DNA of 64,000 bases from Gemmatimonadota bacterium (GTDB taxonomy: Bacteria > Gemmatimonadota > Gemmatimonadetes > Gemmatimonadales > Gemmatimonadaceae), in contig JACREJ010000025.1 of the NCBI GenBank assembly GCA_016218305.1, positions 243 to 64,242 on the forward strand, given 5' to 3'. Every line of letters begins with the position of its first letter. Positions within the stretch are counted from its first letter, which is position 1. Shown in pieces: positions 19,275 to 51,409 of the stretch. Both the position numbers and the translations under genes were made by a program. The notes under the pieces were generated by a model. It was not told the origin of the DNA, did not search any database, and saw only the letters and a list, made by a program, of their open reading frames with translations.

Positions 19275-19303
19275 GGACGAAGCGGCGTGAGGGGGGGGGC
19301 GGA

Positions 19304-34128: not shown

Positions 34129-35643
34129 TCAGCGGGGCGCGTCGGCTGACGCGGCTTGGACCTGCGGCGCTCGAGGGACTCCGGCCCGGCTCCAGCCGAT
34201 GACGCGCGTCGGGACGAGGCCGAGGACGAGGATCGCGATGGCCGTGGCAAAGACGACGCCGCGTGTGAGGGCGCCGGTGCGTTCCGGCTCCGCCGCCCCG
34301 TCCGGGCGCGCCTTCATGAACATCACGCGCACGACGTTCAGGTAGTAGCCCGCGGACACCACCGAGGTCAGGACCAGCACCACCGCCAGCGTCGTCAACG
34401 GCCGCGGCGCCTCGATGGCGGCCATCAGCAGGTACCACTTCCCGAAGAACCCGACGCCGCCGAAGATCGGGAAGCCCATGAGCGAGAGCATGAAGATCGC
34501 CATGGCGATGGCGAGCCCCGGCCGGACGTGCCAGAGCCCCTCGTAATCCGAGAGGTCATTGTTGGCGTCGCCCTCACGTCCCACGGCGATGACCACCGCA
34601 AAGGCGCCGTACGACGCCAGGGTGTACGCCACGAGATAGAAGAGGAACGCGGCCGAGCCGCCCAGCGTGCCGGCGGCCACTGCCACCAGCAGGTAGCCGG
34701 AATGGGCGATGGACGAGTACGCGAGCAGTCGCTTGAGGTTGCGCTGCGAGAGCGCCACGGTGTTGCCGACGAACATGGCGACCGCGGCCAGCCACCAGAT
34801 GGGCGTGAACCAGGCCTCGCCCATGCCGGCGAGCGCCTCGAGCCAGACGCGCAGCATCGTCGCGAACGCGGCGGCCTTGACGGCCGTGGCCATGAACGCG
34901 GTGATGGGGGTCGGGGCGCCTTCGTAGACGTCGGGCGCCCACATGTGGAACGGCGCGGCGGCGATCTTGAAGCCGAACCCGACCAGCAGGAGGCCGGTGC
35001 CGACCAGCATCATCGGGTGCGCCACGAAGTTGCCGGCCACCACGCGCTGGCCGATGTCGGTAAGGTTCGTGGTGCCCGTGGCGCCGTAGATCAGCGCGAT
35101 GCCGTACAGCAGGAACGCGGTGGCGAACGCGCCGAGCAGGAAGTACTTCAGCGACCCTTCGGCCGACTTGGCGCTGCGCCGATTGAAGCCGGCGAGCACG
35201 TAGATCGCCACCGACATCAGCTCGATGCCGAGGAAGACGATCATCAGGTCGCGCGCGGCGGCGAGGATCATCATGCCCGCGGTGGCGAAGAGCACCAGCA
35301 CGTGCGACTCGGCGGGGAGAATGCGCTCGCGCTGGTTGTACTCCATGCCGAGCGCCACGGCGCCGAACGCGCCGAGCAGGCAGATGAGGTCGGTGGCCCA
35401 GCGGAAGTTGTCCACCGCGATGACGCCGACGTTCGACGACAGGCCGCGGGTGGAGTACCAGAGCGTCATGGCGATGGTCGCCGCGATCAGGGCGAGCGCC
35501 GCCCGGCCGACCGCCTGCTGGTGCTCGGTGGACTCGGGCCGCCAGGCAGCCCAGAGCATCAGGACCATGGCCCCGACGATAAGCAGCAGGTCAGGCCCGA
35601 GAGCCTGCATGAGCTGCGACGGATTCGCGAGATCGAAGATCAT
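34129..35643 (-). CDS. nuoN: NADH-quinone oxidoreductase subunit N
   Basis: 504 aa, about 14 TM, antiporter-like. Start directly follows the nuoM TAA. Confidence 0.93.
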   Translation of the reverse strand: MIFDLANPSQLMQALGPDLLLIVGAMVLMLWAAWRPESTEHQQAVGRAALALIAATIAMTLWYSTRGLSSNVGVIAVDNFRWATDLICLLGAFGAVALGMEYNQRERILPAESHVLVLFATAGMMILAAARDLMIVFLGIELMSVAIYVLAGFNRRSAKSAEGSLKYFLLGAFATAFLLYGIALIYGATGTTNLTDIGQRVVAGNFVAHPMMLVGTGLLLVGFGFKIAAAPFHMWAPDVYEGAPTPITAFMATAVKAAAFATMLRVWLEALAGMGEAWFTPIWWLAAVAMFVGNTVALSQRNLKRLLAYSSIAHSGYLLVAVAAGTLGGSAAFLFYLVAYTLASYGAFAVVIAVGREGDANNDLSDYEGLWHVRPGLAIAMAIFMLSLMGFPIFGGVGFFGKWYLLMAAIEAPRPLTTLAVVLVLTSVVSAGYYLNVVRVMFMKARPDGAAEPERTGALTRGVVFATAIAILVLGLVPTRVIGWSRAGVPRAPQVQAASADAPR

Positions 35644-37227
35644 TTATCGCGCCGTGTTGGAGGCGGAGGCCGGCGCCGTATTCGCGCTGGCCTCGACGTA
35701 CGTGACCAGGCGCCGTGCGGCGGCCTCGGTCTTCTCGAGCACCGGCTTGGGATAGACACCCATCCAGACGATGGCGATGAGCAGCGGCACAAGCAGCCCG
35801 ATTTCCCGCCAGTTGAGATCCTTGATGGTCTCGTTCTCCGGCTTGGACAGCTTGTTGTAGATGATCCGCTGCAGCGCCCACAGCAGGTAGGCCGCGGCAA
35901 AGATGACGGCCGTGGCCGAGATGACGGCGGCCACCGGCTGGGTCTTGTACGCGCCGACGAGCACCAGGAACTCGCCGATGAAACCGTTGGTCCCCGGCAC
36001 GCCGATGCTGCTCAGCGAGACGATGGTGAGGATGGTGGCGAAGATCGGCACCACCTTGGCGATGCCGCCGTAGTCCTCGATCATGCGCGTGTGCCGCCGC
36101 TCGTAGATCATGCCGACGAGAAGGAACAGCGCGCCCGTGGAGACGCCGTGGTTGATGTTCACCATCAGCGCGCCCTGCATCGACTCGACCGTGAGCGAGA
36201 AGATGCCGAGCATCACGAAGCCGAGGTGGCTGACGGACGAATACGCCACCAGCTTCTTGAAGTCCGGCTGCACCATGGCCACGAGGGCGCCGTACACGAT
36301 GCCGATGACCGCGAGGACGATGATCAGGTTGCGCACCGCGGGATTCATGGCGGCGCTCGGGAAGAGCGGCAGCGCGAACCGGATGAAGCCGAACGTGCCC
36401 ATCTTCAGCATGATCGCGGCCAGGATCACCGAGCCGGCCGTGGGCGCCTCGACGTGCGCGTCGGGCAACCAGGTATGGAACGGGAACATCGGCACCTTGA
36501 CCGCGAACGCGAGCGCGAACGCGCCGAAGAGCCAGAGCGTCGTCGTCGGGTCGAGGTGGACGTTGTTCAGGATGAAGTCGTAGCTGAAGTTCGGCGCACC
36601 GGCCACCCGCGACGCCTCGGAGCCGAGGTACAGGATGGCGACCAGCATGAGCAGCGAGCCGATCATAGTGTAGATGAAGAACTAGATCGCCGCGTAGAGC
36701 CGCCGTTCCCCGCCCCAGACGCCGATGATCAGGTACATCGGCACCAGCATGATCTCCCACATCACGTAGAAGAGCACGAGATCGAGCGCCACGAAGACGC
36801 CGAGCATGCCAATGGTCAGGAACAGCAGCATCACGTAGTAGGCGTGCGGCTTGGTGCGGATGCTGGTCCAGCTGCCGAGCACGGCCAGCGGCATCATCAG
36901 CGTGGTGAGCAGCACGAGCATCATCGAGATGCCGTCGAGCCCCACCGAGAACCGGACGCCCCACTGCGGAATCCACGGCAGGTCCACCGCCGCCTGCCAG
37001 CCCGCGGCCGCCGGATCGATGGACCACCAGAGTCCGAGGGAGAGGATGGCCTCCGCCATGAAGAAGGCGAAGGCGAGGACGCGCACTTCACGCCAGCGCT
37101 TGTCGGCCGGGTCCTTGGCCGTCAGGAGCGCATGCGCCCACAGCCCGGCCGCGCCGAACAGCGGCAGCAGCAGCAGGACCGGAACGATCCAGGCGTTGTA
37201 ATTGATCGACGACAGGAACGCGGTCAT
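35644..37227 (-). pseudogene. nuoM: NADH-quinone oxidoreductase subunit M interrupted by one in-frame TAG (36684..36682); fragments 36682..37227 (181 aa) and 35644..36666 (340 aa)
   Basis: The minus strand reads ...CTC TAC GCG GCG ATC TAG TTC TTC ATC TAC ACT ATG ATC GGC = LYAAI*FFIYTMIG. Both fragments are in the same frame and together form a full-length NuoM/ND4. Confidence 0.85.
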
Positions 37228-37230
37228 GGG

Positions 37231-39432
37231 TTACCGAAAGGTGAAGGCGCCAAGCAGGGTGATGACACCGATCAGCAGGACCCAGGCGTACGTGCCCACC
37301 TGGCCTGTCTGCAGCTGCGAGCCCATCCAACCGAAGGCGCGGGCCAGCAGCGCGCTGCCATTGACGAAGAGCCCGTCGATGATGCCGGCGTCGAAGCCCT
37401 TCCACAGGACGGCGCGCGACACGTTGACCGTCGGCTGCACGATGGCGGCGTCGTAGCCCTCGTCCACGAAGTACTTGTTCTCGAGCACGCGGTCGAAGCC
37501 CGTCGCCGCCGGTGAGTCCTTCTTGGCCACCAGCGCTGCCGGCTTGAGCCGCAGGACGGCGAACGTGATGCCGACCACCGCGATCAGGATGGCGGTGCCC
37601 ACCAGCACGTATTCGGTGCTGTGCGACAGGTGGGGCGCCTCGCCCAGCGTCGTGCGCAGGGCATTCGCCCCGACCACCGGCTCGAGGAAGTGCTCGAGCC
37701 CGCCCACCGGGCCGATCGCATCGAGGAGCGCCGGCACGTTGAGCCAACCGCCGAACGCGGCGAGGATGGCCAGCACCACCAGCGGGCCGGTCATGATCCA
37801 CGGCGCTTCCTTCAGGTGCGGCCGCTCGGCCTCCCCGGTCCGGTTGGGGCCATGGAAGGTGTAGAGCATCATCCGCGTCATGTAGATCGCCGTCAGCAGC
37901 GCCGAGGCGAGCCCGAGCCCGTAGACGATCATCAGCAGCGTGCTGCCCGGAATGCCAAGCAGCGACGCCTCGGCCAGCGTCGAGTGGTGCGCCCGCGCGA
38001 AGACCGAGGCGAGGATCTCGTCCTTGGAGAAGAACCCCGAAAAGAGCGGGATGCCGGCGATGGCCAGCGTCGCAGTCCACATCAGGTAGAACGTGATGGG
38101 CATGTACGTCTTCATGCCGCCCATGTTGCGCATGTCCTGCGCGTCGTCATGGTTGTGCGTGGCGTGATACGCCGCGTGCATGACGTAGATCACCGAGCCC
38201 GACCCGAGGAACAGCAGCGCCTTGAAGAAGGCGTGCGTCACGAGGTGGAAGACGCCGGCCACGTAGGCCCCGACGCCGACGCCGATGAACATGTAGCCGA
38301 GCTGCGAGACCGTGGAGTACGCCAGCACCTTCTTGATGTCCCACTGCTTCAGGCCGATCGTCGCCGCGAAGAACGCCGTCGCCGCGCCAACGGCCGCCAC
38401 GGTGAGCTGGGCCACCGGCGCCATCGAGAAGATCCCCGAGGCGCGGGCCACGAGATAGACGCCCGCCGTCACCATCGTCGCCGCGTGGATCAGCGCGGAG
38501 ACCGGCGTCGGGCCGGCCATCGCATCCGGGAGCCACACGTACAGCGGGATCTGTGCGCTCTTGCCCGTGCATCCGACGAACAGGAACAGGGCGATCGCCG
38601 TGGCGATCACGCCGCCCATCGGGAGCTCGGCCGCCTTCTCCGCCACGCCGAGGATGTCGAGCGTGCCGAGGTTGGCGAACATCAGGAACATCGCGACCAG
38701 GAAGCCGAAGTCGCCGATGCGGTTGACGATGAACGCCTTCTTGCCGGCGTCGGCGTTGGCCTTCTCCGAGAACCAGAAGCCGATGAGCAAGTAGGAGCAG
38801 AGCCCCACCCCTTCCCAGCCCACGAACAGCAGCGGGTAGCTGCCGCCGAGGACGAGGATCAGCATGAAGAAGACGAACAGGTTGAGGTACGCGAAGTAGC
38901 GCGGGTACCCCGGATCGTCCTGCATGTAGCCGACGCTGAAGATGTGGATCAGCATGCCGACGCCGGTGATGACCATCACCATGACCATCGACAGCGGATC
39001 GAGCAGGATCGTCGCGTTGAGGTTCAGGTCGCCGACGGGCATCCACGAGAACAGCGTGAGGACGTAGGGATGCTCCATGTCGACGCCGCGCATCGCGGCG
39101 AAGATGGCCACCGCGAGGCCGAACGCCGCCACGAGCACGCCGGGGCCGACGAGACTGACGATCTTCGCGAACTTGTGCCGCGGCGGATGGCCGTGGTCGT
39201 CGTGGCCGTGGTCGGCGTGCGCGTGGGCGTCCCCATGCCCATGCGCCTCACCGTGCCCGTGCCCGTTGTCGGCAGAGGGATCGGCCGGGCCGATCTTGGC
39301 TGCGCCAAGCATCGCGAGGGTTCCGTTGATCAGGAACCCCAGGAGCGGCAGCAGCGGGAGCAGCCACACCAGGCGCGCGACGGTTGTCGCGAGCGGGTGC
39401 GCCCCCTCGGGAATCAAGGCCGGGTTCATCAT
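37231..39432 (-). CDS. nuoL: NADH-quinone oxidoreductase subunit L (with a His-rich insertion after TM1)
   Basis: ORF 37231..39630 trimmed to [10 protein letters not shown] (ATG 39432, ATGA overlap with the nuoK stop); 733 aa. Antiporter-like core plus a C-terminal lateral-helix region. Confidence 0.92.
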
Positions 39433-39740
39433 CCCTTGAGGAGGTTGATGTTCTGGAGGTTGACCGTCCGCTGGTGGCGGAAGATGGCAATGATGATCGC
39501 CAGCCCGACCGCGGCTTCCGCCGCGGCGACAGTCATCGTAAAGACCACGAACACCTGGCCGGCCGCGCCGTACAGCTTGCTCAGCGCCACGAAGGACAGG
39601 TTGACGGCGTTGAGCATCAGCTCCACGCACATGAAGATCATGATCGCGTTGCGGCGCGTCAGGACGCCGATGACGCCGATCGTGAACAGGAGCGCCGAAA
39701 GGGCGAGGGCCTCAACGAGCATCGGTCCTCCGCTTGCCAA
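39429..39740 (-). CDS. nuoK: NADH-quinone oxidoreductase subunit K
   Basis: 103 aa, 3 TM, with conserved Glu residues in [10 protein letters not shown] and [11 protein letters not shown]. An alternative start MLVEAL is at 39722. Confidence 0.92.
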
Positions 39741-40284
39741 GCACCACCGAGCCCACGATCGCGGCGAGCAGGAGCACGCTCGTCAGCTCGAAGGCCAGCA
39801 GGTACTCCTTGAAGAGCGGGGCGGCCACGGGGCCGATGATGCCGCCGGCCACCGGCGTCGCCGCCGCCGCGGCCGCCTTCGCGGCGAGGTCCGGCGGGAT
39901 CATCTTGTCGATCGTGCTCGACCGGTTCAGCGCCATCACCTCGGCGAGCAGCGCGAGGCCGACGAAGAGCGCGAGCACGTAGCCCCACTTGCCCCGCGCG
40001 TCGGCCAGCTCGGACGGATGCCCGAGGTTGAGGAGCATGATCACGAACAGGAAGACCACCATGATCGCGCCGGTGTAGACCAGCACCTGCATGGTGGCGA
40101 TGAACTGCGCATCGAGCATCACGTAGAGTGCCGCCAGCGCGAACATCACGTTCACCAGCCACATCGCCGCCGCCACCGTGTTCTTGCGGGTCACGAACGC
40201 GACGGCACTGGCGAGCGCGATCAGCCCGAAGAAGTAGAAGCCGAACGAATAGGCCAGCGAGTGGAATTGATTGGGTTGCATCAC
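39712..40284 (-). CDS. nuoJ: NADH-quinone oxidoreductase subunit J
   Basis: 190 aa, 5 TM. ATGA overlap with nuoI. Confidence 0.9.
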
Positions 40285-40778
40285 TCGCCCCTGGGATCAG
40301 CCGGATCCCACATCTCGCACACGGGGTGCGTCTGCGACGTCAGCCGCTTGAGATCGTAGATGAAGTCCTTGCGCTCGTACTCCGCATTCTCGTAGTGCCG
40401 GCCGAGGTGGATCGCCTCCTCCGGGCAGACTTCCTGGCAGTAGCCGCAGAAGATGCAGCGGAACTCGTCGATGTCGAAGACGAGCGGATAGCGATTCCCC
40501 TCCGCGTCCTCGCCCGGCACCAGCTTGATGCAGTTGGCCGGGCACACGGTCGGGCAGAGGCCGCACGCCACGCACTTGGCCTTGCCGTCCTCGGTGGTGA
40601 GCATGCGGTGCGTTCCGCGCCAGCGCGGCCCGATGTCCCATTTCTCCTCGGGATACTGGACGGTCACCTTGTGCGGGTCCACGAGGTGCTTGAACGACAG
40701 CGCCAACCCCTGGAACGTCGCGCGGATGTAGCTCGACTCGTCGACGGGCCGTTCGACGACCCTCGTTGTGATGGCCAT
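40281..40778 (-). CDS. nuoI: NADH-quinone oxidoreductase subunit I (2x[4Fe-4S])
   Basis: 165 aa. CVACGLCPTVCP and CIFCGYCQEVCP. Confidence 0.95.
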   Translation of the reverse strand: MAITTRVVERPVDESSYIRATFQGLALSFKHLVDPHKVTVQYPEEKWDIGPRWRGTHRMLTTEDGKAKCVACGLCPTVCPANCIKLVPGEDAEGNRYPLVFDIDEFRCIFCGYCQEVCPEEAIHLGRHYENAEYERKDFIYDLKRLTSQTHPVCEMWDPADPRGE

Positions 40779-42064
40779 CAGGCCCCCTTCCCGTTCAGGA
40801 GATCACTGCGGTCCGCGACGGCGCGCAGCTGTGCCACTTCTTCGCGCTGCAGCCGCGAGAACGCCGGGCTGATGATGCGCCCGCGGTCGAGCACCCAGAA
40901 CACCAGCACCACGAACACCAGGTTCATGCCGAGCATCGCGCCGCGGAACGCCATCCCGTCGCGCGCCAGGCCCGCGAAGTCGAGGCCCAGCACCATGCTG
41001 GCCACCGCCGTGATGTAGAGGAGCGCCATCGGCAGCAGCACCTTCCAGCCCAGCGACATCAGCTGGTCGTAGCGGAAGCGCGGCACCGTCCAGCGCAGCC
41101 AGATGAAGGCGAAGACGAAGAACATGACCTTGCCGACGTACATGCCCATCGTCAGCAGCGTCTTCGTGATCGTCCACGGCGGCAGGTTGTCCCACGTGGT
41201 GAACGGAATATCCCAGCCGCCGAAGAAGAGCGCGATCATCAGCGAACTGGACGTGATGATGTTCGCGTACTCCGCCAGCGGGAACATGGAGTACCGCATC
41301 GAGCTGTACTCGGCGTGGTAGCCCGCGATCAGCTCCGACTCGGCTTCGGGGAGGTCGAACGGCACGCGGTTCGTCTCGGCGAGGGCCGCTACCGCGAAGA
41401 TGAAGAAGGCCAGCGTCAGCAGGAGCACGTTCCACCCCTGCGTCTGCTGCTGCGAGATGACCGCGCTCAGGTTGACGTTGCCGGCGAGGAGCAGCACGCA
41501 GACGGTGCTCATGCCCATCGCGATCTCGTACGAGATCATCTGCGCCGAGGCGCGGAGGCCGCCGAGGAGCGCGTACTTGTTGTTGGACGACCAGCCCGCG
41601 ATGGTGACGCCGTACACGCCCAGCGAGCTGATGGCGAGGGTGAACAGGAAGCCCACCGGCAGGTCGGCTACGACCATGTCGATGAGGCCGACACCCGGCA
41701 CCGGAAGCGGCGACGCGAACGGAATCACCGCCCAGGTGATCATGGCGGGGACGAAGGCGATCGCCGGCGCCAGGATGAAGAGCGCCTTGTTCACGCCCCC
41801 CGGCATCGACTCTTCCTTCATGAAGTTCTTCACGCCGTCGGCGATCGGCTGGAGGAAGCCCTCCCAGCCCACGCGATTCGGACCGAGACGGTCCTGGATC
41901 CAGGCGGCGACGCGGCGCTCGGCGAGCGTCGTGTAGGCCACGCACAGCATATAGATGCCAAACGCAGCCCCCGCCTTGATGAGGCCGAACAGGATGAACA
42001 TCCCGTCGGTGGGCGGAAGCTGCGGGTTCGCGGCCTGCAGGAGGAGGGACAGCGCGTGCGTCAT
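40778..42064 (-). CDS. nuoH: NADH-quinone oxidoreductase subunit H (extended C-terminus)
   Basis: 428 aa. AERRVAAWIQDRLGPNRVG motif and an extra ~75 aa after the usual C-terminal end. Confidence 0.94.
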   Translation of the reverse strand: MTHALSLLLQAANPQLPPTDGMFILFGLIKAGAAFGIYMLCVAYTTLAERRVAAWIQDRLGPNRVGWEGFLQPIADGVKNFMKEESMPGGVNKALFILAPAIAFVPAMITWAVIPFASPLPVPGVGLIDMVVADLPVGFLFTLAISSLGVYGVTIAGWSSNNKYALLGGLRASAQMISYEIAMGMSTVCVLLLAGNVNLSAVISQQQTQGWNVLLLTLAFFIFAVAALAETNRVPFDLPEAESELIAGYHAEYSSMRYSMFPLAEYANIITSSSLMIALFFGGWDIPFTTWDNLPPWTITKTLLTMGMYVGKVMFFVFAFIWLRWTVPRFRYDQLMSLGWKVLLPMALLYITAVASMVLGLDFAGLARDGMAFRGAMLGMNLVFVVLVFWVLDRGRIISPAFSRLQREEVAQLRAVADRSDLLNGKGA

Positions 42065-43590
42065 GCGGTCACCCCCGCTCCGGCCGCCATCTGGCCCTTG
42101 AGTCCAAGCGAGTCATAGCTCATTCCGCTGAAGGCGGCCTCGGCCTTGGCCATCGCGGTAAAGACCGCCTCGGCCGAGTCGTACGCGCCGGGCTTCCCGG
42201 CTGCCGCGGCGAGACCCGCGAGCGCCATCCAGCTGGCGCGCGCCATCCCGGGCGCGGGGCGTGCCTGCAGGTAGCGCTGCGTGCGCCCGCGCAGGTTCGT
42301 GAAGGTCCCTTCCTCTTCCGCGAAATTCGCGATCGGGAGGAGGATGGCGCCGGCCGGCAGCCCCGTGGGCGCCACCGTGCCGATGAAGATCACCGCGCTG
42401 GCGCCGGACAGCGCCGACGTGTCGAGTCCGTCGCAGTCGTCGCCCGCGATCACCACCACCTTGCCCGCGCCCGCGAGCGGCTGGTCGGCGCGGCTGAAGC
42501 CGAGCATCTCCGCACCCGTCGCATTCGGGGCGCGGTCGGCGCGCAGCGCGAGGTCCTTGACGCCCGGCAGCGGCGCCTCGGCCCCCTTGGCGACGCGGAA
42601 CTTGCCCGTCCCCGCCGCCTGCTTGAGCAGCCAGAGCGCTTCATTGGACATGGATGCGCTGGCCACGACGTGCGCGCTGGCGCCCTTGAGCGCGGCGCCG
42701 GCGGCGGACAGGGCCGCCTCCCACGAAGCCAGCTTCCCTGCAACGACCGGCGTCTCGAGCCGATCATCGCGGTTGATCCACTGGTAGTTGAGGCGGCCCT
42801 CGTCGCACATGTAGTACTGGTTGACGTCGGCGTTGGACCGCGGCTTCATCCGCACCACGTTCCCGTCGCGCGTCTCCAGCGTGACGTTGCAGCCCTGCGA
42901 GCAGTTGGGGCAGACCGACGCCGTGCGGTCGAGCTCCCACGCGCGTGCCTTGTTCAGGAAGTCCTTGCTGACCAGCGCGCCCACCGGGCACAGGTCGATC
43001 ACGTTGGCCGCCCAGGGGTGCGTCAGGTCGTGGTCGGGCGCGATGCCGATGCGCGCGCGATCGCCGCGCTCCTCCACACAGAGCGCCTCGTCACCGGCGA
43101 CATCGTCCATGAAGCGAACGCAGCGCGTGCAGAGGATGCAGCGGTTGGTGACGTACATGACGTCGCCGCCGAAGTCCTCGGCCGGGTTGAAGCGCTTCGG
43201 CTCGTGATACCGCGAGTCGGCGCGCCCTTCCTGGAAGGTGTAGTCCTGCAGCTCGCACTCGCCGGCCTGGTCGCAGATCGGGCAGTCGAGCGGATGGTTG
43301 ATGAGGAGCAGCTCGAGCACGCCCTTGCGGGCGTCGAGCGCCTTCTGGCTGTAGACATGCACCACCTGTCCCTCACCGACGGTCGTCGCGCAGGACGGCG
43401 CCAGCTTCGGGAACTTCTCCACTTCCACGAGGCACATGCGGCAGACGCCCGCGATCTTGAGCCCGGGGTGGTAGCAGTAGTGCGGGATGAGCACCCCGGC
43501 GGTCTTGGCCGCCTCGAGGATGGTCGTCCCCTCGGGGACGCTGACCGCGCGTCCCTCGATGGTCAGGGTGATGAGCTTCGGGTCGGTCAT
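42061..43590 (-). CDS. nuoG: NADH-quinone oxidoreductase subunit G (short form)
   Basis: ORF trimmed to MTDPKLITLTIEGRAV (ATG 43590, 1-nt overlap with the nuoF stop). 2Fe-2S and 4Fe-4S Cys motifs (CYHPGLKIAGVCRMC; HPLDCPICDQAGEC; CILCTRCVRF; CPVGAL); 509 aa. Confidence 0.92.
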   Translation of the reverse strand: MTDPKLITLTIEGRAVSVPEGTTILEAAKTAGVLIPHYCYHPGLKIAGVCRMCLVEVEKFPKLAPSCATTVGEGQVVHVYSQKALDARKGVLELLLINHPLDCPICDQAGECELQDYTFQEGRADSRYHEPKRFNPAEDFGGDVMYVTNRCILCTRCVRFMDDVAGDEALCVEERGDRARIGIAPDHDLTHPWAANVIDLCPVGALVSKDFLNKARAWELDRTASVCPNCSQGCNVTLETRDGNVVRMKPRSNADVNQYYMCDEGRLNYQWINRDDRLETPVVAGKLASWEAALSAAGAALKGASAHVVASASMSNEALWLLKQAAGTGKFRVAKGAEAPLPGVKDLALRADRAPNATGAEMLGFSRADQPLAGAGKVVVIAGDDCDGLDTSALSGASAVIFIGTVAPTGLPAGAILLPIANFAEEEGTFTNLRGRTQRYLQARPAPGMARASWMALAGLAAAAGKPGAYDSAEAVFTAMAKAEAAFSGMSYDSLGLKGQMAAGAGVTA

Positions 43591-44900
43591 CAGGCCGTCA
43601 CCGCCACGGTGGATGAGCGCTTGCCGGAGATCAGCGCCTCGAACTCGCCGCGGAAGCGCGTAATGCCGCTGCACACGGGCGCGCCGCACGAGTCGCTGAG
43701 CACGCAGATGGTCTTGCCGGTCATGTTCTCGGTCAGCTCGAAGATCGTGTCGAGGTCCTCGTACGTCCCCTGACCCGCCACGATGCGCTCGAGGATCTTG
43801 GTCATCCACGCGGTGCCTTCGCGGCACTGCGTGCACTGCGCGCAGCTCTCGTGCGCGTAGAACCGCGCGAGCCGGGCGAGCTGCTTGGGCATGGACTGCG
43901 CGTCGTCGAAGATGATGACGCCGCCGGAGCCCAGCATCGTGCCGAACTCCATGAAGCCCTCATAGTCCATCTTGACCTGCTCGGCTTCCTCGATCGTGAT
44001 CACCGGCACCGACGACCCGCCGGGGATGATCGCCTTGAACTTCCGGCCCGGCAGCGGTCCGCCGCACAGGTCGTACAGGAATTCCTTGAACGAGAAGCCC
44101 ATCGGCACTTCGTAGTTGCCGGGGCGCGCCACGTTGCCGCAGACCGAGAAGAGCTTGCTGCCGGTGCTCTTGGGGCTGCCGAGGCACATCGCCTTGTACC
44201 ACTCGGCGCCGTTGTTGAGGATGTGCGGCACCGCGGCCAGGGTCTCGACGTTGTTGACGGTCGTCGGCATGCCGAAGACGCCCGCCACCGCCGGGAAGGG
44301 CGGCTTGATGCGCGGATTGCCGCGGCGCCCCTCGATGGAGTTCATGAGGGCGGTCTCTTCGCCGCAGATGTACGCGCCGGCGCCGCGATGCACCCACATG
44401 TTGATCGTCTTGCCCGAGCCGCAGGCGTTGGGGCCGATCATCCCGGCCGCGCGCGCCTCGTCCAGCGCCTTCTCCATGACGGCGATGGGCTCGGTGAACT
44501 CGCCGCGGATGTAGATGTAGGTCGTCTCGGCACCGATTGCGTGCGCGGCAATCGCGCATCCCTCGATGAGCTGGTGCGGCGTCCACCGCATGATCTCGCG
44601 GTCCTTGAACGTTCCCGGCTCGGACTCGTCGGCGTTGCAGCACAGGTAGTGCGGCTTGCCGTCGTTCAGCTTCATGAACGACCACTTGAGGCCGGTCGGG
44701 AAGCCGGCGCCGCCGCGACCGCGCAGCCCGGATTCCTTGACGACGTTCTGGATGGCCACCGGGTCGGTGGCCAGCGCCTGCGGCAGCGCCTTATAGCCGC
44801 CGCGCGCCTTCCACCCCTCCAGCGTGCGTGCCTCGGGGTCGCCGAAGTACTTGCTGAGGATCGGTGTTTCGCGCGGATGGCTCTTGTGTGGATAGCCCAT
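43590..44900 (-). CDS. nuoF: NADH-quinone oxidoreductase subunit F
   Basis: 436 aa. GRGGAGFPTGLKW, the FMN/NADH site and a SCAQCTQCREG cluster. Confidence 0.97.
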   Translation of the reverse strand: MGYPHKSHPRETPILSKYFGDPEARTLEGWKARGGYKALPQALATDPVAIQNVVKESGLRGRGGAGFPTGLKWSFMKLNDGKPHYLCCNADESEPGTFKDREIMRWTPHQLIEGCAIAAHAIGAETTYIYIRGEFTEPIAVMEKALDEARAAGMIGPNACGSGKTINMWVHRGAGAYICGEETALMNSIEGRRGNPRIKPPFPAVAGVFGMPTTVNNVETLAAVPHILNNGAEWYKAMCLGSPKSTGSKLFSVCGNVARPGNYEVPMGFSFKEFLYDLCGGPLPGRKFKAIIPGGSSVPVITIEEAEQVKMDYEGFMEFGTMLGSGGVIIFDDAQSMPKQLARLARFYAHESCAQCTQCREGTAWMTKILERIVAGQGTYEDLDTIFELTENMTGKTICVLSDSCGAPVCSGITRFRGEFEALISGKRSSTVAVTA

Positions 44901-44903
44901 AGT

Positions 44904-44931
44904 TCAGACGGGAGACGGGTGACGGGAGACT
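44904..44931. repeat. G-rich heptamer array (tcagacg ggagacg ggtgacg ggagact) in the nuoF leader
   Basis: 4 x 7 nt, 3 nt upstream of the nuoF ATG. The mRNA strand is C/T-rich (AGTCTCCCGTCACCCGTCTCCCGTCTGA). Confidence 0.75.
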
Positions 44932-44946
44932 TGCCCTACGAGGTAC

Positions 44947-44990
44947 TGTTGTCTCTCTGTTGTTTCTCTGTTGTCTCTCTGTTGTTTCTC
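44947..44990 (-). repeat. 11-nt tandem repeat array (GAGARACAACA x4) starting directly after the nuoE stop
   Basis: Plus strand tgttgtctctc tgttgtttctc tgttgtctctc tgttgtttctc. About 40% GC in a ~67% GC context. Confidence 0.9.
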
Positions 44991-45542
44991 TTACGCGTAC
45001 TGCTTGAGTATCTCCGGCACCTTCTCCACGCTCACGCTGTCGATGAAGTCGTTGTTGATCATGATTGGCGTCGCAAACCCGCACGCCCCTAAGCACTCGA
45101 CTTCTATCACCGTGTACTTGCCGTCAGCCGACGTCAGGCCGAGCTCACCGCAGCCGGTCTTCTCGAGGAAGGCCTTCACCACGTCCTCGGCGCCCATGCA
45201 ATTGCAGCAGGACGTCGTGCAGACCTGGATGAAGTACTTCCCCACTGGATGCTGGTGGTACATGGTGTAGAACGTCACCACGCCCTTGACGTAGGCGGCG
45301 GTGAGGCCGAGCACGTCGCCGACTTCCTTCATCGCGTGCTCGCTGACCCAGCCGCGCTCGTCCTGCACGATCCACAGCGCGGGCAGCAAGCCGGCCTGCT
45401 TGGTGGGATAGCGCGTCAGGATGTCGTCGAGCTTGGCGCGCGGCGCCGACCCGGCCGTGAAGACCGGCACATACGGTTCGTCGTGGTGCCCGTGCGCTGG
45501 CTGCGCTACTGCCCCGCCGGATGCTGATGGTCCGTGGCTCAT
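44991..45542 (-). CDS. nuoE: NADH-quinone oxidoreductase subunit E
   Basis: 183 aa. 2Fe-2S motif CTTSCCNCMG...CLGACG. Confidence 0.95.
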   Translation of the reverse strand: MSHGPSASGGAVAQPAHGHHDEPYVPVFTAGSAPRAKLDDILTRYPTKQAGLLPALWIVQDERGWVSEHAMKEVGDVLGLTAAYVKGVVTFYTMYHQHPVGKYFIQVCTTSCCNCMGAEDVVKAFLEKTGCGELGLTSADGKYTVIEVECLGACGFATPIMINNDFIDSVSVEKVPEILKQYA

Positions 45543-45559
45543 GCGTCCCCTCGCCCGTC

Positions 45560-45603
45560 TGTTGTCTCTCGGTTGCTTCTCTGTTGTCTCTCTGTTGTCT
45601 CTC
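45560..45603 (-). repeat. 11-nt tandem repeat array (GAGAGACAACA-type x4) starting directly after the nuoD stop
   Basis: Plus strand tgttgtctctc ggttgcttctc tgttgtctctc tgttgtctctc. It abuts the nuoD TGA (45606..45604) and ends 17 nt before the nuoE ATG. Confidence 0.9.
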
Positions 45604-46911
45604 TCACCGATCGATCTCTCCCATCACGATGTCGATCGACGCATTGATGGCAATCACGTCGGATAGCAGGTGCCCCTCGACCATCTTGGGAATGGCCGAG
45701 AGGTTCACGAACGACGGGGGCCGGATGCGCCAGCGCACCGGCTTGGCCGTGCCGTCCGACACCATGTAGTAGCCCTTCTCCCCCTTGGGGGCCTCGACGG
45801 CCACGTACGACTCGCCGATGGCCGGGCGCGGTCCTTCCATCACGTTCTTGAAGTGATGGATCATGCTCTCCATCTCGCTCGTCGCCTTGTGCTTGGGCGG
45901 CAGGATGACGCGCGGGTCGTCCACGTTCACCGGGCCGTCGGGAAGGCGGGCGATGGCCTGCTCAATGATGCGCACGGACTGCCGCATCTCCTCCATGCGC
46001 ACGAGGTAGCGGTCGTACACGTCGCCGTGCACGCCCACCGGCACCTCAAAGTCGTACGTCTCGTAGTCGAGATACGGGAAGTCCTTGCGGACGTCGTAGT
46101 CCACGCCCGACGCGCGCAGCATCGGGCCCGAGAGGCCGTAGTTGAGCGCCTCCTCGGGGTTCATCACGCCCAGCCCCACCGTGCGGCCCACCCAGATGCC
46201 GTTGCGCGTCAGCATGCGGTCGCACTCGCTCAGCGTCTTCGGGAACGTGCGGACGAAGGCCTTGAGCCCGTCGAGCCAGCCGTCGGGAATGTCGGCGGCC
46301 ATCCCGCCCACGCGCGAGGCGCTCGTCGTGAGGCGCGCGCCCACCCACCCCTCGAACAGGTTGTAGATGTTCTCGCGCTCCTGGAACGACCACAGGAACG
46401 GCGTGAAGGCGCCGATGTCGATGCCCGTCGTCCCCATCCAGACCAGGTGCGACGCAATGCGCGACAGCTCCATGCCGATGACGCGCAGCACGGTGCAGCG
46501 CGGCGTGATCTCGATGCCGAACAGCTTCTCGGCGCCGAGGGAGAAGGCGATGTTGTTGCCGACGCAGTTCAGGTAGTCGTCGCGGTCGGTCCAGGGAATG
46601 ATCTGGTTGTACTGGCGGTACTCGCCGATCTTCTCGAAGCCGCAATGCAGGTAGCCGATGTGCGGGATGCACCGCACCACCGTCTCGCCGTCGAGCTCGA
46701 GCACGAGGCGGAGCACGCCGTGCGTCGCCGGATGCTGCGGCCCGATGTTGATGAGCATGTGCTCGCCCTCGAGCTCCGGCTCGAGCGCGGGCGGCGCCTG
46801 CAGGGCGAGGCCGCCGGTGTCGCCGGCGACGAGCGGAATGCGCTGCGGCTTGCCGTCGGCGCCGAGGCCGGTGGTCGAGAGTTCGACTTCAATCGTGCGC
46901 TTGGTGGCCAT
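45604..46911 (-). CDS. nuoD: NADH-quinone oxidoreductase subunit D
   Basis: 435 aa. NIGPQHPATHGVLRL motif, with SD-like GGGAGAA upstream. Confidence 0.97.
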   Translation of the reverse strand: MATKRTIEVELSTTGLGADGKPQRIPLVAGDTGGLALQAPPALEPELEGEHMLINIGPQHPATHGVLRLVLELDGETVVRCIPHIGYLHCGFEKIGEYRQYNQIIPWTDRDDYLNCVGNNIAFSLGAEKLFGIEITPRCTVLRVIGMELSRIASHLVWMGTTGIDIGAFTPFLWSFQERENIYNLFEGWVGARLTTSASRVGGMAADIPDGWLDGLKAFVRTFPKTLSECDRMLTRNGIWVGRTVGLGVMNPEEALNYGLSGPMLRASGVDYDVRKDFPYLDYETYDFEVPVGVHGDVYDRYLVRMEEMRQSVRIIEQAIARLPDGPVNVDDPRVILPPKHKATSEMESMIHHFKNVMEGPRPAIGESYVAVEAPKGEKGYYMVSDGTAKPVRWRIRPPSFVNLSAIPKMVEGHLLSDVIAINASIDIVMGEIDR

Positions 46912-46914
46912 CGG

Positions 46915-47610
46915 CTATTCTCCCGTGGACTCGCCGCCCTTGATGCGGGCGCGCATGTCGAGCGGAAGCTCCTGGAAGGCGTCGGCGATGGAGAGTTCTT
47001 CCATCGAGTACCGGGCCTCGGGGTTGGCGGCGAGCGCCTGGCGCAGCTGCTCGGCGCGGCTGAGGCGCCCACGGAGCGGGAAATCCTTGCGGAGCGGGAA
47101 TCCTTCCGTGTACTGCTCCCACAGCAGGATGCGCCGCAGGTCGGGGTGCCCCTCGAAGACGATGCCGAACATGTCGTAGCACTCGCGCTCGAGCCAATCG
47201 GCGCCTTTGTAGACCGACCAGACCGACGCGATCTTGAGCGGCTGTCCCTTGGCCAGCGGCGCCTTGAGGCGCAGGAAGCGGCGGTACTTGATGGAGCGCA
47301 GGTGCCAGATCACCTCGATCGGCATGCCGCGATCACGGAACTCCACCGCCGTGACATCGGAGAGGTACTCGTAGCTCTGCGACGGGTCGTCGTGCAGCCA
47401 GCGCACGATGTCGAGGGCGCGGGCGGGGTCGATCGTGACGTTCGTCTCGCCCCACACGACGTCCACCCGCAGGATGGCGGCGCCGAACTGGGCCTTGAGC
47501 GCCTCGGCGGAGGGGTTCGCGTCGCCGCCGCGATGCGGCACGTTCTTGGGCGTCGCGGGCGTCGGCAGTCCCGGCGCCGACCCCGACTGGATCACCGTGA
47601 AGGCGCTCAC
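46915..47610 (-). CDS. nuoC: NADH-quinone oxidoreductase subunit C
   Basis: ORF trimmed to GTG 47610 (GTGA overlap with the nuoB stop). [24 protein letters not shown] motif; 231 aa. Confidence 0.9.
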
Positions 47611-48233
47611 TGTCCGCTCCGCGTCTGGGGGATGGAGTTCCCGAACTGCTCGGACAGCTTGTCGATGCGCGACGGCGGGATGTAGAGCTGGCTCGTCGGA
47701 TCCGGCTCCATCTCGACGCGGGCCGCGGTGTCGGACATCCGGTCCTTCATCACCTTCTTCTGCAGCATCATGATGGCGTGGATCAGCGCCTCGGGGCGCG
47801 GCGGGCAGCCCGGCACGTACACGTCGATGGGGATGATGGTGTCGATCCCCTGCACGACGGCGTAGTTGTCGAACATGCCGCCCGTGGAGGCGCAGGCGCC
47901 CATGGAGATGGCCCACTTGGGCTGCGGCATCTGCTGCCAGATGCGGCGCAGCACCGGAGCCAGCTTGAACGGAACGCGCCCCGCGCAGATCAGGACGTCA
48001 GCCTGGCGGGGCGAGTATCCCATGCGCTCCATGCCGAAGCGCGCGAGGTCGAACTTGGAGGCGGCGGTCGCCATGAACTCGATGGCGCAGCACGCGGTGC
48101 CGAACGGCATGGGCCACAGTGAGTTGGCGCGTCCCCAGTTGACCAGGAAGTCGAGCCGGGTGGTGATCCACCCCTCGCTGTTGACCGGGTCCACCGAGAC
48201 GACGCTGGGGGTTGGCGTTTGGATCAGTCCCAT
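47607..48233 (-). CDS. nuoB: NADH-quinone oxidoreductase subunit B
   Basis: ORF trimmed to MGLIQTPTP (ATG 48233). N2 cluster motifs [16 protein letters not shown] and GCPPRPE; 208 aa. Confidence 0.94.
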
Positions 48234-48628
48234 TGGAGGGCTCCCTTCTTCCAGACGTAGGCGAAGCCGGCGAAGAGGATGGCCATGAAGACGAGCATTT
48301 CGCCGAGCCCGAAGAACGAGATCTGGCCCGCGGGGCACGCGCCGCCGACGAGCGGCACCGCGCACGAGAGCTGGCGATAGTACGCCGCCCACGGAATCAT
48401 GAACACGGTTTCGATGTCGAACACGATGAACAGCATCGCCACCATGTAGAACTTGATCGAGAACCGCTCGCGGGCATCGCCCAGCGGGGGCATGCCCGAT
48501 TCGTAGGGCTGCTGCTTCACCGGTGTCGGCCGCGTGCGCATCACGAGCTGCGAAAGCCCGATGATGGCCACCGCCGTAAGGATGGCGATGCCGAGCAGGA
48601 AGAGGACGGGTATGTAGTTGCGATCCAT
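48224..48628 (-). CDS. nuoA: NADH-quinone oxidoreductase subunit A
   Basis: ORF 48224..49006 trimmed to [18 protein letters not shown] (ATG 48628). YESGMPP and FDIETVF motifs; 134 aa. Confidence 0.9.
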
Positions 48629-50099: not shown

Positions 50100-51362
50100 T
50101 CACGCCGGCGGCATCCGCACGATCTTCCCCATGAACAGCACCGTCCCCGTGAGCCGCTCGCGCAGCACGAACAGGTACGGACGGTCCACGCGCATCGTCG
50201 GGTAGGACGGCATTGAGGTGACGCCGATGCCCACGGTCGTCACGGCGGCCGCCTCGGTGCCCTCTTCGTTGATGTCCACGAAGGTGTTCTGCTTCACGAA
50301 CTCGATGAAGAGCTCATGCCCCGCCGGCGCGGCCGCCATCTGCGTGAAGTCCGCACCGCCCGGGGCAAACGGCACCACCATGCCGAGCGCCTTCAGGTCG
50401 TCGTTGAGACGACGCTCGTACTTGAGCGTCAGCCGCGGCAGGTAGAAGTAGACCTTCTGCGTGCGGAACGCGGACGTCAGTGCCTGCCACGACGCCGGCG
50501 TGAGCGACGCCGCCAGTGTCTCCACGTCGGTGCCCGCCTTGGGGAGCAGCACCGTCATGGAGAAGGCGGTGTTGCCGTACGGCAGGTCGGCGGCCTGGTA
50601 CGTCGCCGTCTCGGCGTAGGACAGTGTGTCCAGTCGGTACATCAACTGCACCGCCTGCGAGCCGCCCGTCGCGGCGTAGAACGTGGCCGGCGCCGTCTGC
50701 GCCGGATCGAACTTCAGGCGCCAGCTTCCCTTGAAGTAGATGGCGTTGATCAGGAACATCACCTGCTGCGCGGTGATGTCGTCGAGCACGGTCGGAATCT
50801 TCCCCGCCGTCGCGGTGTTGACCCAGCCGTTGATGGCCGCCAGCGACGCCGCCCGGTCGTTGAAGTTCAGCCCACGCACCGTGGCGTCGAAGTACACCCT
50901 AGTGGTGTCGAAGAACGCCTGCCGGAAGGGGAATTCCTGCCGGTACCAGATGGAGTTGGCGATCCGCATCTGCACGCCCGGATCGAGCGACGTGAGCAGC
51001 GCGACGAGCGACTTGTAGCCCGCATTGATCTCGGGGACCGTCGCGTTGCCGAACTGGAGCGCCGCACGCATCTGGTCGGCGGTCTGGCCCGCCGCCCCGT
51101 TCAGCGTCATGCCGAGCGCAAACGATGCGCTCAGCGGCGATATGAAGACGTTGCTGTCCCGCTGGGCGGCGTTGACCTTGCCCCACAGGGCGAAGGCGAA
51201 CGCGTTCGCGGCATCGCGAACCTTGATCTCATTGGCGGTGAGCGCGCGCGGCAGCGCCGTCAGCGCCGCAGGCGGACCCGAGGGGTTGCCTTCGGTGGGC
51301 GTCGTGGCGCAGGCCGCCGCGGCCACCAGCACCGCGACGGCGGCAAGGGAGCGAACGAACAT
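50100..51362 (-). CDS. Serpin (serine protease inhibitor family I4), probable lipoprotein
   Basis: ORF trimmed to MFVRSLAAVAVLVAAAAC (ATG 51362). FISPLSASFALGM, NAIYFKGSWRLKFD, hinge/RCL NEEGTEAAAVTTVGIGVTSMPSYP and DRPYLFVL; 420 aa. Confidence 0.9.
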   Translation of the reverse strand: MFVRSLAAVAVLVAAAACATTPTEGNPSGPPAALTALPRALTANEIKVRDAANAFAFALWGKVNAAQRDSNVFISPLSASFALGMTLNGAAGQTADQMRAALQFGNATVPEINAGYKSLVALLTSLDPGVQMRIANSIWYRQEFPFRQAFFDTTRVYFDATVRGLNFNDRAASLAAINGWVNTATAGKIPTVLDDITAQQVMFLINAIYFKGSWRLKFDPAQTAPATFYAATGGSQAVQLMYRLDTLSYAETATYQAADLPYGNTAFSMTVLLPKAGTDVETLAASLTPASWQALTSAFRTQKVYFYLPRLTLKYERRLNDDLKALGMVVPFAPGGADFTQMAAAPAGHELFIEFVKQNTFVDINEEGTEAAAVTTVGIGVTSMPSYPTMRVDRPYLFVLRERLTGTVLFMGKIVRMPPA

Positions 51363-51409
51363 GGCGGTCTCTCTCGGATAGCACGTCATACCTGTGCTAC
51401 CCCACAGAC

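What the first reader, a model, noticed from the sequence alone, without database searches (positions are those of the whole stretch)
36682..36684. Single in-frame amber codon splits nuoM in an otherwise intact, tightly coupled 14-gene complex I operon
Read directly: the reverse complement of 36655..36720 is GTC TGG GGC GGG GAA CGG CGG CTC TAC GCG GCG ATC TAG TTC TTC ATC TAC ACT ATG ATC GGC TCG CTG, i.e. VWGGERRLYAAI*FFIYTMIGSL. The 181-aa and 340-aa ORFs are in the same frame and together make a normal-length NuoM. From my recollection of NuoM/ND4 sequences this segment is conserved as ...YAA(I/M)KF(F/L)(I/L)YT..., so the TAG sits where Lys AAG is expected, a single A-to-T change. There is no other decay: GC3 bias and conserved motifs continue downstream. 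This argues for a very recent nonsense mutation, a sequencing or assembly error, or tolerated stop read-through or suppression. Loss of NuoM would normally abolish complex I assembly.
Basis: partly seen in the sequence, partly recalled or inferred. Interest (0 to 1): 0.65.

Follow-up and report, generated by a model that had tools for sequence, protein, structure and literature searches.

The report
Premature stop codon in nuoM
One base change (AAG to TAG) cuts a respiratory complex I gene in two in this uncultured Gemmatimonadota genome; it is either a very young knockout mutation or a base error in the assembly, not an unusual genetic code or a new gene arrangement.

Summary
On the minus strand, codon 182 of nuoM (window 36682-36684) is TAG. 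The 181-aa and 340-aa ORFs on either side are in the same frame. Joined, they match the NuoM profile end to end (586 bits). The other 13 nuo genes and 30 further genes in the window are intact.

All 120 closest homologues have Lys at this position. All relatives examined at DNA level read AAG or AAA, including four at 95-97.7% nucleotide identity. The change is therefore a single A-to-T substitution private to this assembly.

TAG is a normal stop here: at least 11 other window genes end in TAG at their normal C-termini. There is no tRNA in the window. No relative has the gene split. There is no excess of amino-acid changes in the window's lineage, so the lesion has essentially zero evolutionary age.

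The window comes from a public metagenome-assembled genome (locus-tag prefix HY944). Its annotation already lists the two pieces: MBI5600357.1 (181 aa, "hypothetical protein") and MBI5600356.1 (340 aa, "subunit M").

Sequence alone cannot say whether the T is in the cells or only in the consensus; that needs the reads. I lean slightly towards a real young null allele (about 0.47) over an artefact (about 0.40). Programmed read-through or a working two-piece NuoM is unlikely. Interest is low.

The parts
36682..36684 (-). In-frame TAG at codon 182 of nuoM. Relatives have AAG (Lys) here.
36685..37227 (-). nuoM N-terminal piece, 181 codons (the ORF as listed, 36682-37227, includes the TAG). Deposited as MBI5600357.1, 'hypothetical protein HY944_02195'. 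It contains the TM5 Glu (WEIM motif) but none of the later conserved charged residues.
35644..36666 (-). nuoM C-terminal piece, a 340-aa ORF starting at the first ATG (codon 188) after the TAG. Deposited as MBI5600356.1, 'NADH-quinone oxidoreductase subunit M'. There is no Shine-Dalgarno match upstream of this ATG.
35644..37227 (-). Whole nuoM reading frame, 527 codons. Collinear with TIGR01972 positions 3-484 of 486.
34129..35643 (-). nuoN, intact, 504 aa. Its ATG directly abuts the nuoM stop (TAA ATG), so its translation probably depends on ribosomes finishing nuoM (inference).
37231..39429 (-). nuoL, intact, 732 aa. Its TAA stop lies 3 nt before the nuoM ATG.
39429..48628 (-). nuoA to nuoK, all intact: nuoA 48224-48628, nuoB 47607-48233, nuoC 46915-47610, nuoD 45604-46911, nuoE 44991-45542, nuoF 43590-44900, nuoG 42061-43590, nuoH 40778-42064, nuoI 40281-40778, nuoJ 39712-40281, nuoK 39429-39722.

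Best explanation
This is an ordinary premature stop codon. A single A-to-T change turned the conserved Lys codon AAG into TAG at codon 182 of nuoM, in this genome only.

TAG is read as a stop in this organism, so translation ends after 181 residues, just after TM5. That product lacks the conserved TM7 Lys, TM8 Lys and TM12 Glu. Without NuoM, complex I should not assemble or pump protons.

Translation of the abutting nuoN (TAA ATG, no Shine-Dalgarno match) is probably also reduced. This step is inferred, not shown.

I take the most likely origin to be a real, very young loss-of-function allele that was the majority variant in the sampled population and was captured in the genome's consensus. 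The cells would then depend on other NADH-oxidising routes, which I could not look for.

Shown: the lesion, that it is private to this assembly, the ancestral codon, normal use of TAG as a stop, and the absence of any other decay. Inferred: that the T is present in the cells, and the physiological consequences.
For: - The TAG is present, and the two halves are collinear on one NuoM profile.
- The TAG is in the deposited record, whose annotation already lists two proteins, MBI5600357.1 and MBI5600356.1. It was therefore not introduced when the window was prepared.
- Lys is found in 120 of 120 homologues.
- AAG is found in L001 and L002 (95% nucleotide identity), L094 (97.7%) and L098 (97.5%).
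- All 15 metagenome contigs that match the 32-nt flanking pattern have A at the site.
- Of 80 genome loci, 56 could be scored: 48 AAG, 8 AAA, no stop.
- TAG is a genuine stop. SucD, UPF0182, GlmM-like, Mdh, MoaA, RpoN, NuoC and others end in TAG with full-length domains. The TAG-terminated SucD has the same 290 aa as its homologues.
- There is no relaxed selection in the window's lineage: nuoM has 12 synonymous and 4 non-synonymous changes (including the stop), against 12 and 2 in the sister lineage. Over four genes the counts are 121/28 against 97/20. The private missense changes lie at variable columns.
- No frameshifting indels relative to relatives between 27.5 and 47.2 kb, and 30 other genes are full length. 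The assembly therefore looks clean locally.
- E. coli membranes lacking NuoM have no complex I activity and very little NuoA or NuoL (PMC13073174).
- Mutations in nuoL, nuoM and nuoN are selected in E. coli laboratory evolution (PMC8795404). nuo variants can therefore rise to high frequency.
Against: - No reads are available, so nothing shows that the T exists in DNA molecules rather than only in the consensus.
- The allele appears in no other public contig or protein. The 181-aa product has a single source, this genome.
- No relative at 99% identity or above was found that could act as a re-sequencing of the same strain.
- nuoM is under strong purifying selection in all relatives, which makes a majority null allele in a natural population a priori uncommon.
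- Base errors fall on genes without regard to their importance.
Confidence: 0.47

Rival explanations
1. Sequencing or assembly artefact. The organism has AAG, and the T is a wrong base in the genome's consensus, for example at a dip in coverage or from an erroneous k-mer path in a mixture of strains. nuoM and complex I are then intact.
For: - The source is a metagenome-assembled genome, not an isolate.
- Several co-occurring relatives at 93-97.7% identity exist in public metagenomes, so the population was probably mixed.
- The allele is unique to this one assembly.
- The gene shows no other sign of decay and is otherwise under normal purifying selection. An error would give exactly this picture.
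- Errors hit core genes as readily as dispensable ones, whereas real null alleles in core genes are removed by selection (general reasoning).
Against: - No other broken gene was found in 64 kb.
- NuoK, NuoF, NuoI, SucD, PyrG and NuoN are each found, residue for residue, in the public protein collection; NuoK and NuoF also occur identically in an independent MAG, GCA_964416005.1. The local base accuracy is therefore high.
- The window lineage's ratio of synonymous to non-synonymous changes matches the sister lineage, so there is no detectable load of random errors.
- Mixing strains cannot by itself create a base that none of them carries.
Confidence: 0.4
2. The amber codon is translated, either by a suppressor tRNA or by near-cognate read-through. 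Full-length NuoM is made, perhaps at a reduced level, and complex I still works.
For: - The column tolerates at least one other residue: solved plant ND4 chains have Gln here (AAYQFFLYT). Gln is a typical near-cognate insertion at UAG (my recollection of work on E. coli strains lacking release factor 1; not checked here).
- The downstream 340 codons are perfectly preserved. A lesion of zero age would give the same result.
Against: - TAG ends at least 11 other genes in the window at their normal C-termini. An efficient suppressor would extend about a quarter of all proteins.
- No tRNA gene is present in the window.
- The in-frame TAG is not conserved in any relative, so nothing points to a selected recoding site.
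- No other gene in the window has an in-frame TAG.
- Basal read-through in bacteria is of the order of 1% or less (general knowledge).
Confidence: 0.04
3. A working two-piece NuoM. Ribosomes that stop at the TAG restart at the ATG 15 nt downstream (codon 188). The 181-aa and 340-aa polypeptides then assemble into complex I without the six residues KFFIYT.
For: - The native nuoM and nuoN starts also lack a Shine-Dalgarno match and sit 3 nt and 0 nt after the preceding stop. Restarting after termination therefore seems to be the normal mode in this operon.
- An in-frame ATG lies 5 codons after the TAG.
Against: - No relative has the gene in two pieces: all 120 closest homologues but one (a 428-aa fragment from a 1.75-kb contig) are uninterrupted proteins of 520-543 aa.
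- The missing residues KFFIYT are among the most conserved in the region: K, the first F and T in 120 of 120, the second F in 119, Y in 118.
- The ATG is simply the conserved Met188, present in intact relatives too (119 of 120), so it was not selected as a start.
- The predicted anti-Shine-Dalgarno pairing upstream of it is +1.0 kcal/mol, meaning none.
Confidence: 0.04
4. An old pseudogene in a decaying complex I operon.
For: Only the stop codon itself.
Against: - There is a single lesion only.
- All 13 other nuo genes are intact.
- Synonymous changes far outnumber non-synonymous ones on both sides of the stop.
- The lineage-specific counts equal those of the sister lineage.
- GC3 is 0.94-0.95.
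Confidence: 0.01

Closest known systems
'Internal stop' gene disruptions in draft and metagenome-assembled genomes
   Same: A single nonsense codon sits in an otherwise full-length, well-conserved gene and is private to one assembly.
   Different: Here the public annotation did not flag a pseudogene. It lists two proteins instead: MBI5600357.1 as 'hypothetical protein' and MBI5600356.1 as 'subunit M'.
E. coli nuoM knockout and nuo mutants selected in the laboratory
   Same: Loss or alteration of an antiporter-like membrane subunit of complex I. Membranes lacking NuoM have no complex I activity and very low NuoA and NuoL (PMC13073174). nuoL, nuoM and nuoN point mutants are selected under antibiotic-persistence regimes (PMC8795404).
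   Different: Those are engineered or laboratory-evolved alleles in a cultured organism with a known alternative NADH dehydrogenase. Here the allele is seen once in an uncultured Gemmatimonadota population, and the rest of its respiratory chain is unknown.
Programmed UAG decoding (pyrrolysine, amber suppressor tRNAs, TAG-reassigned phages)
   Same: An in-frame TAG inside a conserved coding sequence.
   Different: Those systems show conserved or recurrent in-frame TAGs and a dedicated tRNA with a CUA anticodon. Here the TAG is private, other genes use TAG as their terminator, and no such tRNA is in the window.
Naturally split complex I genes (for example, fragmented nad genes in some mitochondria; my recollection, not checked here)
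   Same: A core membrane subunit encoded as two ORFs.
   Different: Natural splits are conserved across a lineage, and each piece has its own start signals. Here all relatives have one 527-aa gene, and the second piece starts at an ordinary internal Met.

Membership tests
NuoM / ND4 (TIGR01972, PF00361 Proton_antipo_M) | Full-length collinear match to the NuoM profile above the curated cut-off | tested here: met
   The joined sequence scores 585.9 bits against a cut-off of 263.8, matching residues 17-509 to profile positions 3-484 of 486. The C-terminal piece alone scores 402 bits. The N-terminal piece alone scores 159 bits, below the cut-off.
NuoM / ND4 (TIGR01972, PF00361 Proton_antipo_M) | Position between nuoL and nuoN in a nuoA-N operon | tested here: met
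   nuoL 37231-39429, nuoM 35644-37227, nuoN 34129-35643, all on the minus strand
NuoM / ND4 (TIGR01972, PF00361 Proton_antipo_M) | Conserved charged residues of the proton path: TM5 Glu, TM7 Lys, TM8 Lys, TM12 Glu (E144, K234, K265, E407 in E. coli numbering) | tested here: met
   The motifs WEIM, FAVKVPMFPFHTWLPDAH, IMLKMG and GFIGEFLV are all present in the translation. E144 and K234 as conserved residues come from PMC13073174. K265 and E407 are from my own recollection. Only the TM5 Glu lies upstream of the stop.
NuoM / ND4 (TIGR01972, PF00361 Proton_antipo_M) | Uninterrupted reading frame | tested here: not met
   TAG at codon 182
Programmed stop-codon recoding (amber suppression, pyrrolysine, reassigned TAG) | The in-frame TAG is conserved at the same site in orthologues | tested here: not met
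   Lys in 120 of 120 homologues. All DNA-level relatives read AAG or AAA.
Programmed stop-codon recoding (amber suppression, pyrrolysine, reassigned TAG) | TAG is not used, or rarely used, as a terminator; other genes carry in-frame TAG | tested here: not met
   Sixteen of 56 ORFs with high third-position GC end in TAG. At least 11 of these are confirmed genes ending at normal C-termini. No other gene has an in-frame TAG.
Programmed stop-codon recoding (amber suppression, pyrrolysine, reassigned TAG) | A tRNA with a CUA anticodon (and pylSBCD for pyrrolysine) in the genome | not testable with these tools
   No tRNA in the 64-kb window. The rest of the genome could not be fetched.
Naturally split gene | The two-ORF arrangement is shared by close relatives | tested here: not met
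   All 120 best homologues but one (a 428-aa fragment from a 1.75-kb contig) are single proteins of 520-543 aa. The loci L001, L002, L094 and L098 are uninterrupted.
Naturally split gene | The second piece has its own translation start signal | tested here: inconclusive
   An ATG lies 15 nt after the TAG with no Shine-Dalgarno match (+1.0 kcal/mol). The native nuoM and nuoN starts also lack one.
Decaying pseudogene | Multiple lesions and relaxed selection (raised ratio of non-synonymous to synonymous changes) in the affected lineage | tested here: not met
   There is one lesion. The window lineage has 12 synonymous and 4 non-synonymous changes, the sister lineage 12 and 2. No indels.
Sequencing or assembly artefact | Reads do not support the consensus base | not testable with these tools
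   No reads are available. No independent assembly of the same strain was found; the closest is 97.7% identical in nuoM.

The most novel reading that the evidence does not exclude
The TAG is real and is partly decoded in this Gemmatimonadota population. This would be near-cognate read-through inserting Gln, Lys or Tyr, or a so-far-unseen amber suppressor. Alternatively, the gene is expressed as two polypeptides after a restart at Met188. Either way, complex I would persist at a reduced level with a naturally interrupted core subunit.
Probability: 0.05. Interest if true: 0.45.

Novelty: already known. Interest (0 to 1): 0.1.

Why it matters
It matters little beyond data quality. If the allele is real, it is one more natural knockout of complex I, in an uncultured Gemmatimonadota population. 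It would suggest that this population can do without proton-pumping NADH oxidation in its habitat.

If it is an artefact, it shows how a single wrong base in a metagenome-assembled genome spreads into public protein databases. There it appears as a spurious 181-aa "hypothetical protein" and a truncated "subunit M". Metabolic reconstructions that require complete complex I would then score this genome wrongly.

Either way, the practical outcome is a curation note: the two deposited proteins should be treated as one disrupted nuoM.

Tried and rejected
1. **Genome-wide TAG reassignment.** I checked every place where two ORFs with high third-position GC abut in the same frame across a TAG: 28112, 30235, 57274, 58336 and 3966. 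All are true gene boundaries between unrelated proteins (SucD|Ndk, UPF0182|SucC, Mdh|SdhC, MoaA|Mdh, RpoN|glycosyltransferase). Rejected.

2. **Scan of the genome collection with the NuoM protein.** The loci were still useful for the codon count at the Lys column.

3. **Exact gene-position look-ups for the 181-aa, 340-aa and NuoN products.** All returned "not on record". That index lacks this assembly. The exact-sequence cluster look-up found them instead and identified the source.

4. **Independent assembly of the same strain.** I looked for other contigs carrying the identical NuoK and NuoF and at the members of the NuoM clusters. The best are 96-97.7% identical in DNA and differ at 5 or more further residues. 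None can arbitrate the base.

5. **P0206, a 168-aa member of the same cluster.** It looked like a possible second sighting of the truncation. It ends 13 residues before the site, so it is a contig-end fragment.

6. **Literature on this specific Lys.** By my own recollection of the E. coli sequence it is about Lys173 of NuoM. The search returned nothing relevant, so the residue number remains unverified.

7. **Long-read error linked to DNA methylation.** GATC immediately precedes the changed base (GATC-T-AG). I considered this, but nothing supports it. The window has none of the indel errors typical of uncorrected long reads, and the sequencing platform is unknown to me.

8. **Apparent missing nuoH in relative L002's gene table.** The ORF is intact; the table simply omits it.

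Full report
**1. The observation**

The ORF list shows 36682..37227 (-) at 181 aa and 35644..36666 (-) at 340 aa in one frame. Translating 35644-37227 straight through gives 527 codons with a single internal stop at codon 182.

The two pieces are the two halves of one NuoM:
- The N-terminal piece matches NCBIfam TIGR01972 positions 3-160.
- The C-terminal piece matches positions 168-484.
- The joined sequence matches 3-484 of 486 in one stretch, at 585.9 bits against a cut-off of 263.8.
- Pfam PF00361 likewise runs across the junction, residues 147-438 matching profile positions 1-288 of 294.

GC3 is 0.94 before the stop and 0.95 after it.

**2. The surroundings**

The window is GC-rich (about 68%). 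Almost all of its genes are on the minus strand.

nuoA to nuoN are all present from 48628 down to 34129. The other 13 genes give strong matches to their NCBIfam families, full profile length for most (NuoG, a short form as in relatives, matches only 1-327 of 606). Their lengths equal those in relatives, and most junctions are overlapping or abutting; nuoD-E and nuoE-F are 61 and 90 nt apart.

Thirty further genes across the window give end-to-end Pfam domain matches. They include rpoN, pyrG, kds genes, fab genes, plsX, sdhAB, a serpin, an S9 peptidase, carA, tpiA and pgk.

BLASTN alignment to syntenic relatives between 27.5 and 47.2 kb shows only compensated or intergenic gaps, so there are no frameshifts. 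nuoM is the only broken gene I could find in 64 kb.

**3. Is TAG a stop in this organism?**

Yes. Of the ORFs with high third-position GC, 16 of 56 end in TAG. There are five places where two such ORFs abut in one frame across a TAG. All are boundaries between unrelated proteins: SucD|Ndk, UPF0182|SucC, MoaA|Mdh, Mdh|SdhC and RpoN|glycosyltransferase.

The TAG-terminated SucD is 290 aa, the same length as its homologues. There is no tRNA gene in the window. An efficient amber suppressor would therefore extend roughly a quarter of the proteome. I found no second in-frame TAG in any gene.

**4. What relatives have at this site**

A search of the large protein collection returned Gemmatimonadaceae NuoM proteins up to 98% identical. 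The closest relatives are all uninterrupted 527-aa proteins. In an alignment of the best 120, the column under the stop is Lys in all 120. It sits inside the highly conserved block Y-A-(A/S)-(I/L)-K-F-F-(I/L)-Y-T.

At the DNA level:

| Relative | Source | nuoM nucleotide identity | Codon 182 |
|---|---|---|---|
| L001 | GCA_030681735.1 | 95.1% | AAG |
| L002 | GCA_054605515.1 | 95.1% | AAG |
| L094 | JGI metagenome contig | 97.7% | AAG |
| L098 | GCA_964416005.1 | 97.5% | AAG |

- A scan of the metagenome collection used the 32-nt flank with N at the variable base. It found 15 contigs, all with A.
- Of 80 more distant genome loci, 56 could be scored with a strict motif: 48 AAG and 8 AAA, none with a stop.

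The lesion is therefore one A-to-T transversion (T-to-A on the plus strand, at 36684), private to this sequence.

The Lys is not universal, however. Solved plant mitochondrial ND4 chains align with Gln at this column (AAYQFFLYT in 7aqq_M and others), while Paracoccus Nqo13 has Lys.

**5. Age of the lesion**

Against L001 and L002, differences in nuoM are overwhelmingly synonymous (65 to 10 and 62 to 12). They fall at third codon positions both upstream and downstream of the stop.

I then polarised the window-versus-L094 differences using L002 and L001 as outgroups:

| Genes | Window lineage (syn / non-syn) | Sister lineage (syn / non-syn) |
|---|---|---|
| nuoM | 12 / 4 (including the stop) | 12 / 2 |
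| nuoL, nuoM, nuoN, glmM-like | 121 / 28 | 97 / 20 |

The three window-lineage missense changes (A101S, S300N, A304V) lie at columns that vary among homologues. There is no trace of relaxed constraint. The stop is either extremely young or not in the organism at all.

**6. Where the window comes from**

Exact-sequence look-ups place the window on a 91,575-bp contig of a public metagenome-assembled genome labelled 'Gemmatimonadetes bacterium'. Its proteins run from MBI5600332.1 (PyrG) to MBI5600364.1 (NuoF).

The deposited annotation already contains the two pieces:
- MBI5600357.1, 181 aa, 'hypothetical protein HY944_02195'
- MBI5600356.1, 340 aa, 'NADH-quinone oxidoreductase subunit M'

The TAG is therefore in the public record. 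The 181-aa product has no other source.

I looked for an independent assembly of the same strain, using contigs that carry identical NuoK or NuoF and the members of the NuoM clusters. The nearest are 96-97.7% identical in DNA and differ at five or more further residues. None can arbitrate the base. A 168-aa cluster member turned out to be a contig-end fragment ending 13 residues before the site.

**7. Mechanism and consequences**

What is shown: translation read with the standard code stops after residue 181. That fragment keeps the TM5 Glu (WEIM). It lacks the TM7 Lys (FAVKVPMFPFHTWLPDAH), the TM8 Lys (IMLKMG) and the TM12 Glu (GFIGEF), all of which are intact downstream. E144 and K234 of E. 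coli NuoM as conserved residues come from PMC13073174.

From the literature: in E. coli, membranes lacking NuoM show no complex I proton pumping and contain NuoA and NuoL only at very low levels (PMC13073174).

What is inferred:
- **Effect on nuoN.** The native nuoM and nuoN starts have no Shine-Dalgarno complementarity and sit 3 nt and 0 nt after the preceding stops. Early termination in nuoM would therefore probably also lower nuoN translation.
- **Possible restart.** The same logic makes a restart at the ATG 15 nt after the TAG conceivable. However, that ATG is just the conserved Met188 (119 of 120 homologues). It has no ribosome-binding signal, and the skipped residues KFFIYT are almost invariant.

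**8. Real allele or artefact?**

The sequence cannot decide this.

For a real allele:
- The region is otherwise clean.
- Several neighbouring proteins are found, residue for residue, in the public protein collection, and NuoK and NuoF also occur identically in an independent MAG.
- The window lineage carries no excess of non-synonymous changes.
- Mixing strains cannot invent a base that none of them carries.
- nuo mutations do rise to high frequency under selection in the laboratory (PMC8795404).

For an artefact:
- The source is a metagenome assembly from a population with co-occurring close relatives.
- The allele has been seen only once.
- It hits a strongly constrained core gene, where errors are not filtered by selection but real null alleles are.

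I put a real young null allele at about 0.47 and an artefact at about 0.40. Translated TAG and a working two-piece NuoM get about 0.04 each, and an old pseudogene about 0.01.

**9. Comparison with known things, and verdict**

The gene is a NuoM/ND4 by every test except an open frame. The lesion fails the tests for programmed recoding: it is not conserved, TAG is a normal terminator, and there is no tRNA in the window. It fails the test for a natural split gene, since no relative is split. It also fails the test for a decaying pseudogene, since there is a single lesion and no relaxed selection.

It is an ordinary nonsense codon of a kind routinely met in draft genomes, and its two pieces are already listed as separate proteins in the public annotation. 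Interest is low. The useful outcome is a curation note and the read-level check described under next steps.

Noticed in passing
window 39190-39300 (-), within nuoL 37231-39429: NuoL carries a roughly 35-residue insert rich in His, Asp and Gly near its N-terminus (...[33 protein letters not shown]...). It is conserved with variation in relatives L002 and L098. NuoL is 732 aa here, against about 615-630 positions in the NCBIfam profiles. It could be a metal-binding loop, but its function is unknown.
   Followed up: partly
window 42061-43590 (-): NuoG is a short form of 509 aa. It matches TIGR01973 only over profile positions 1-327 of 606 and scores below the curated cut-off (436.7 against 470). 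Relatives L002 and L108 have the same length, so this is a lineage feature and not damage.
   Followed up: partly
window 50100-53533 (-): A full-length bacterial serpin (PF00079 positions 2-369 of 370) lies immediately downstream of an S9 prolyl-oligopeptidase-family peptidase gene and overlaps it by 4 nt. The same pair is present in relative L108.
   Followed up: no
window 35641-35646 and 37225-37233 (-): The native nuoM and nuoN start codons have no Shine-Dalgarno complementarity. They sit 3 nt and 0 nt after the upstream stop codons (TAA CCC ATG and TAA ATG). This suggests that the distal nuo genes are translated by restarting after termination of the gene before.
   Followed up: partly
window 18240-21318 (-): A futalosine-type menaquinone biosynthesis cluster: two CofH/MqnC-like radical SAM genes flanking a VitK2_biosynth gene. 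This suggests that this complex I reduces menaquinone.
   Followed up: no
public record of the source genome (proteins MBI5600356.1 and MBI5600357.1): The deposited annotation treats the two nuoM halves as separate proteins and calls the 181-aa N-terminal half a 'hypothetical protein'. It does not flag a disrupted gene. These two entries now sit in 90%-identity clusters with intact NuoM proteins.
   Followed up: yes
L002 5170-6453: The gene table returned for this relative has no entry where nuoH should be, but the ORF is intact (428 aa). It is a gap in the table, not a second disrupted nuo gene.
   Followed up: yes
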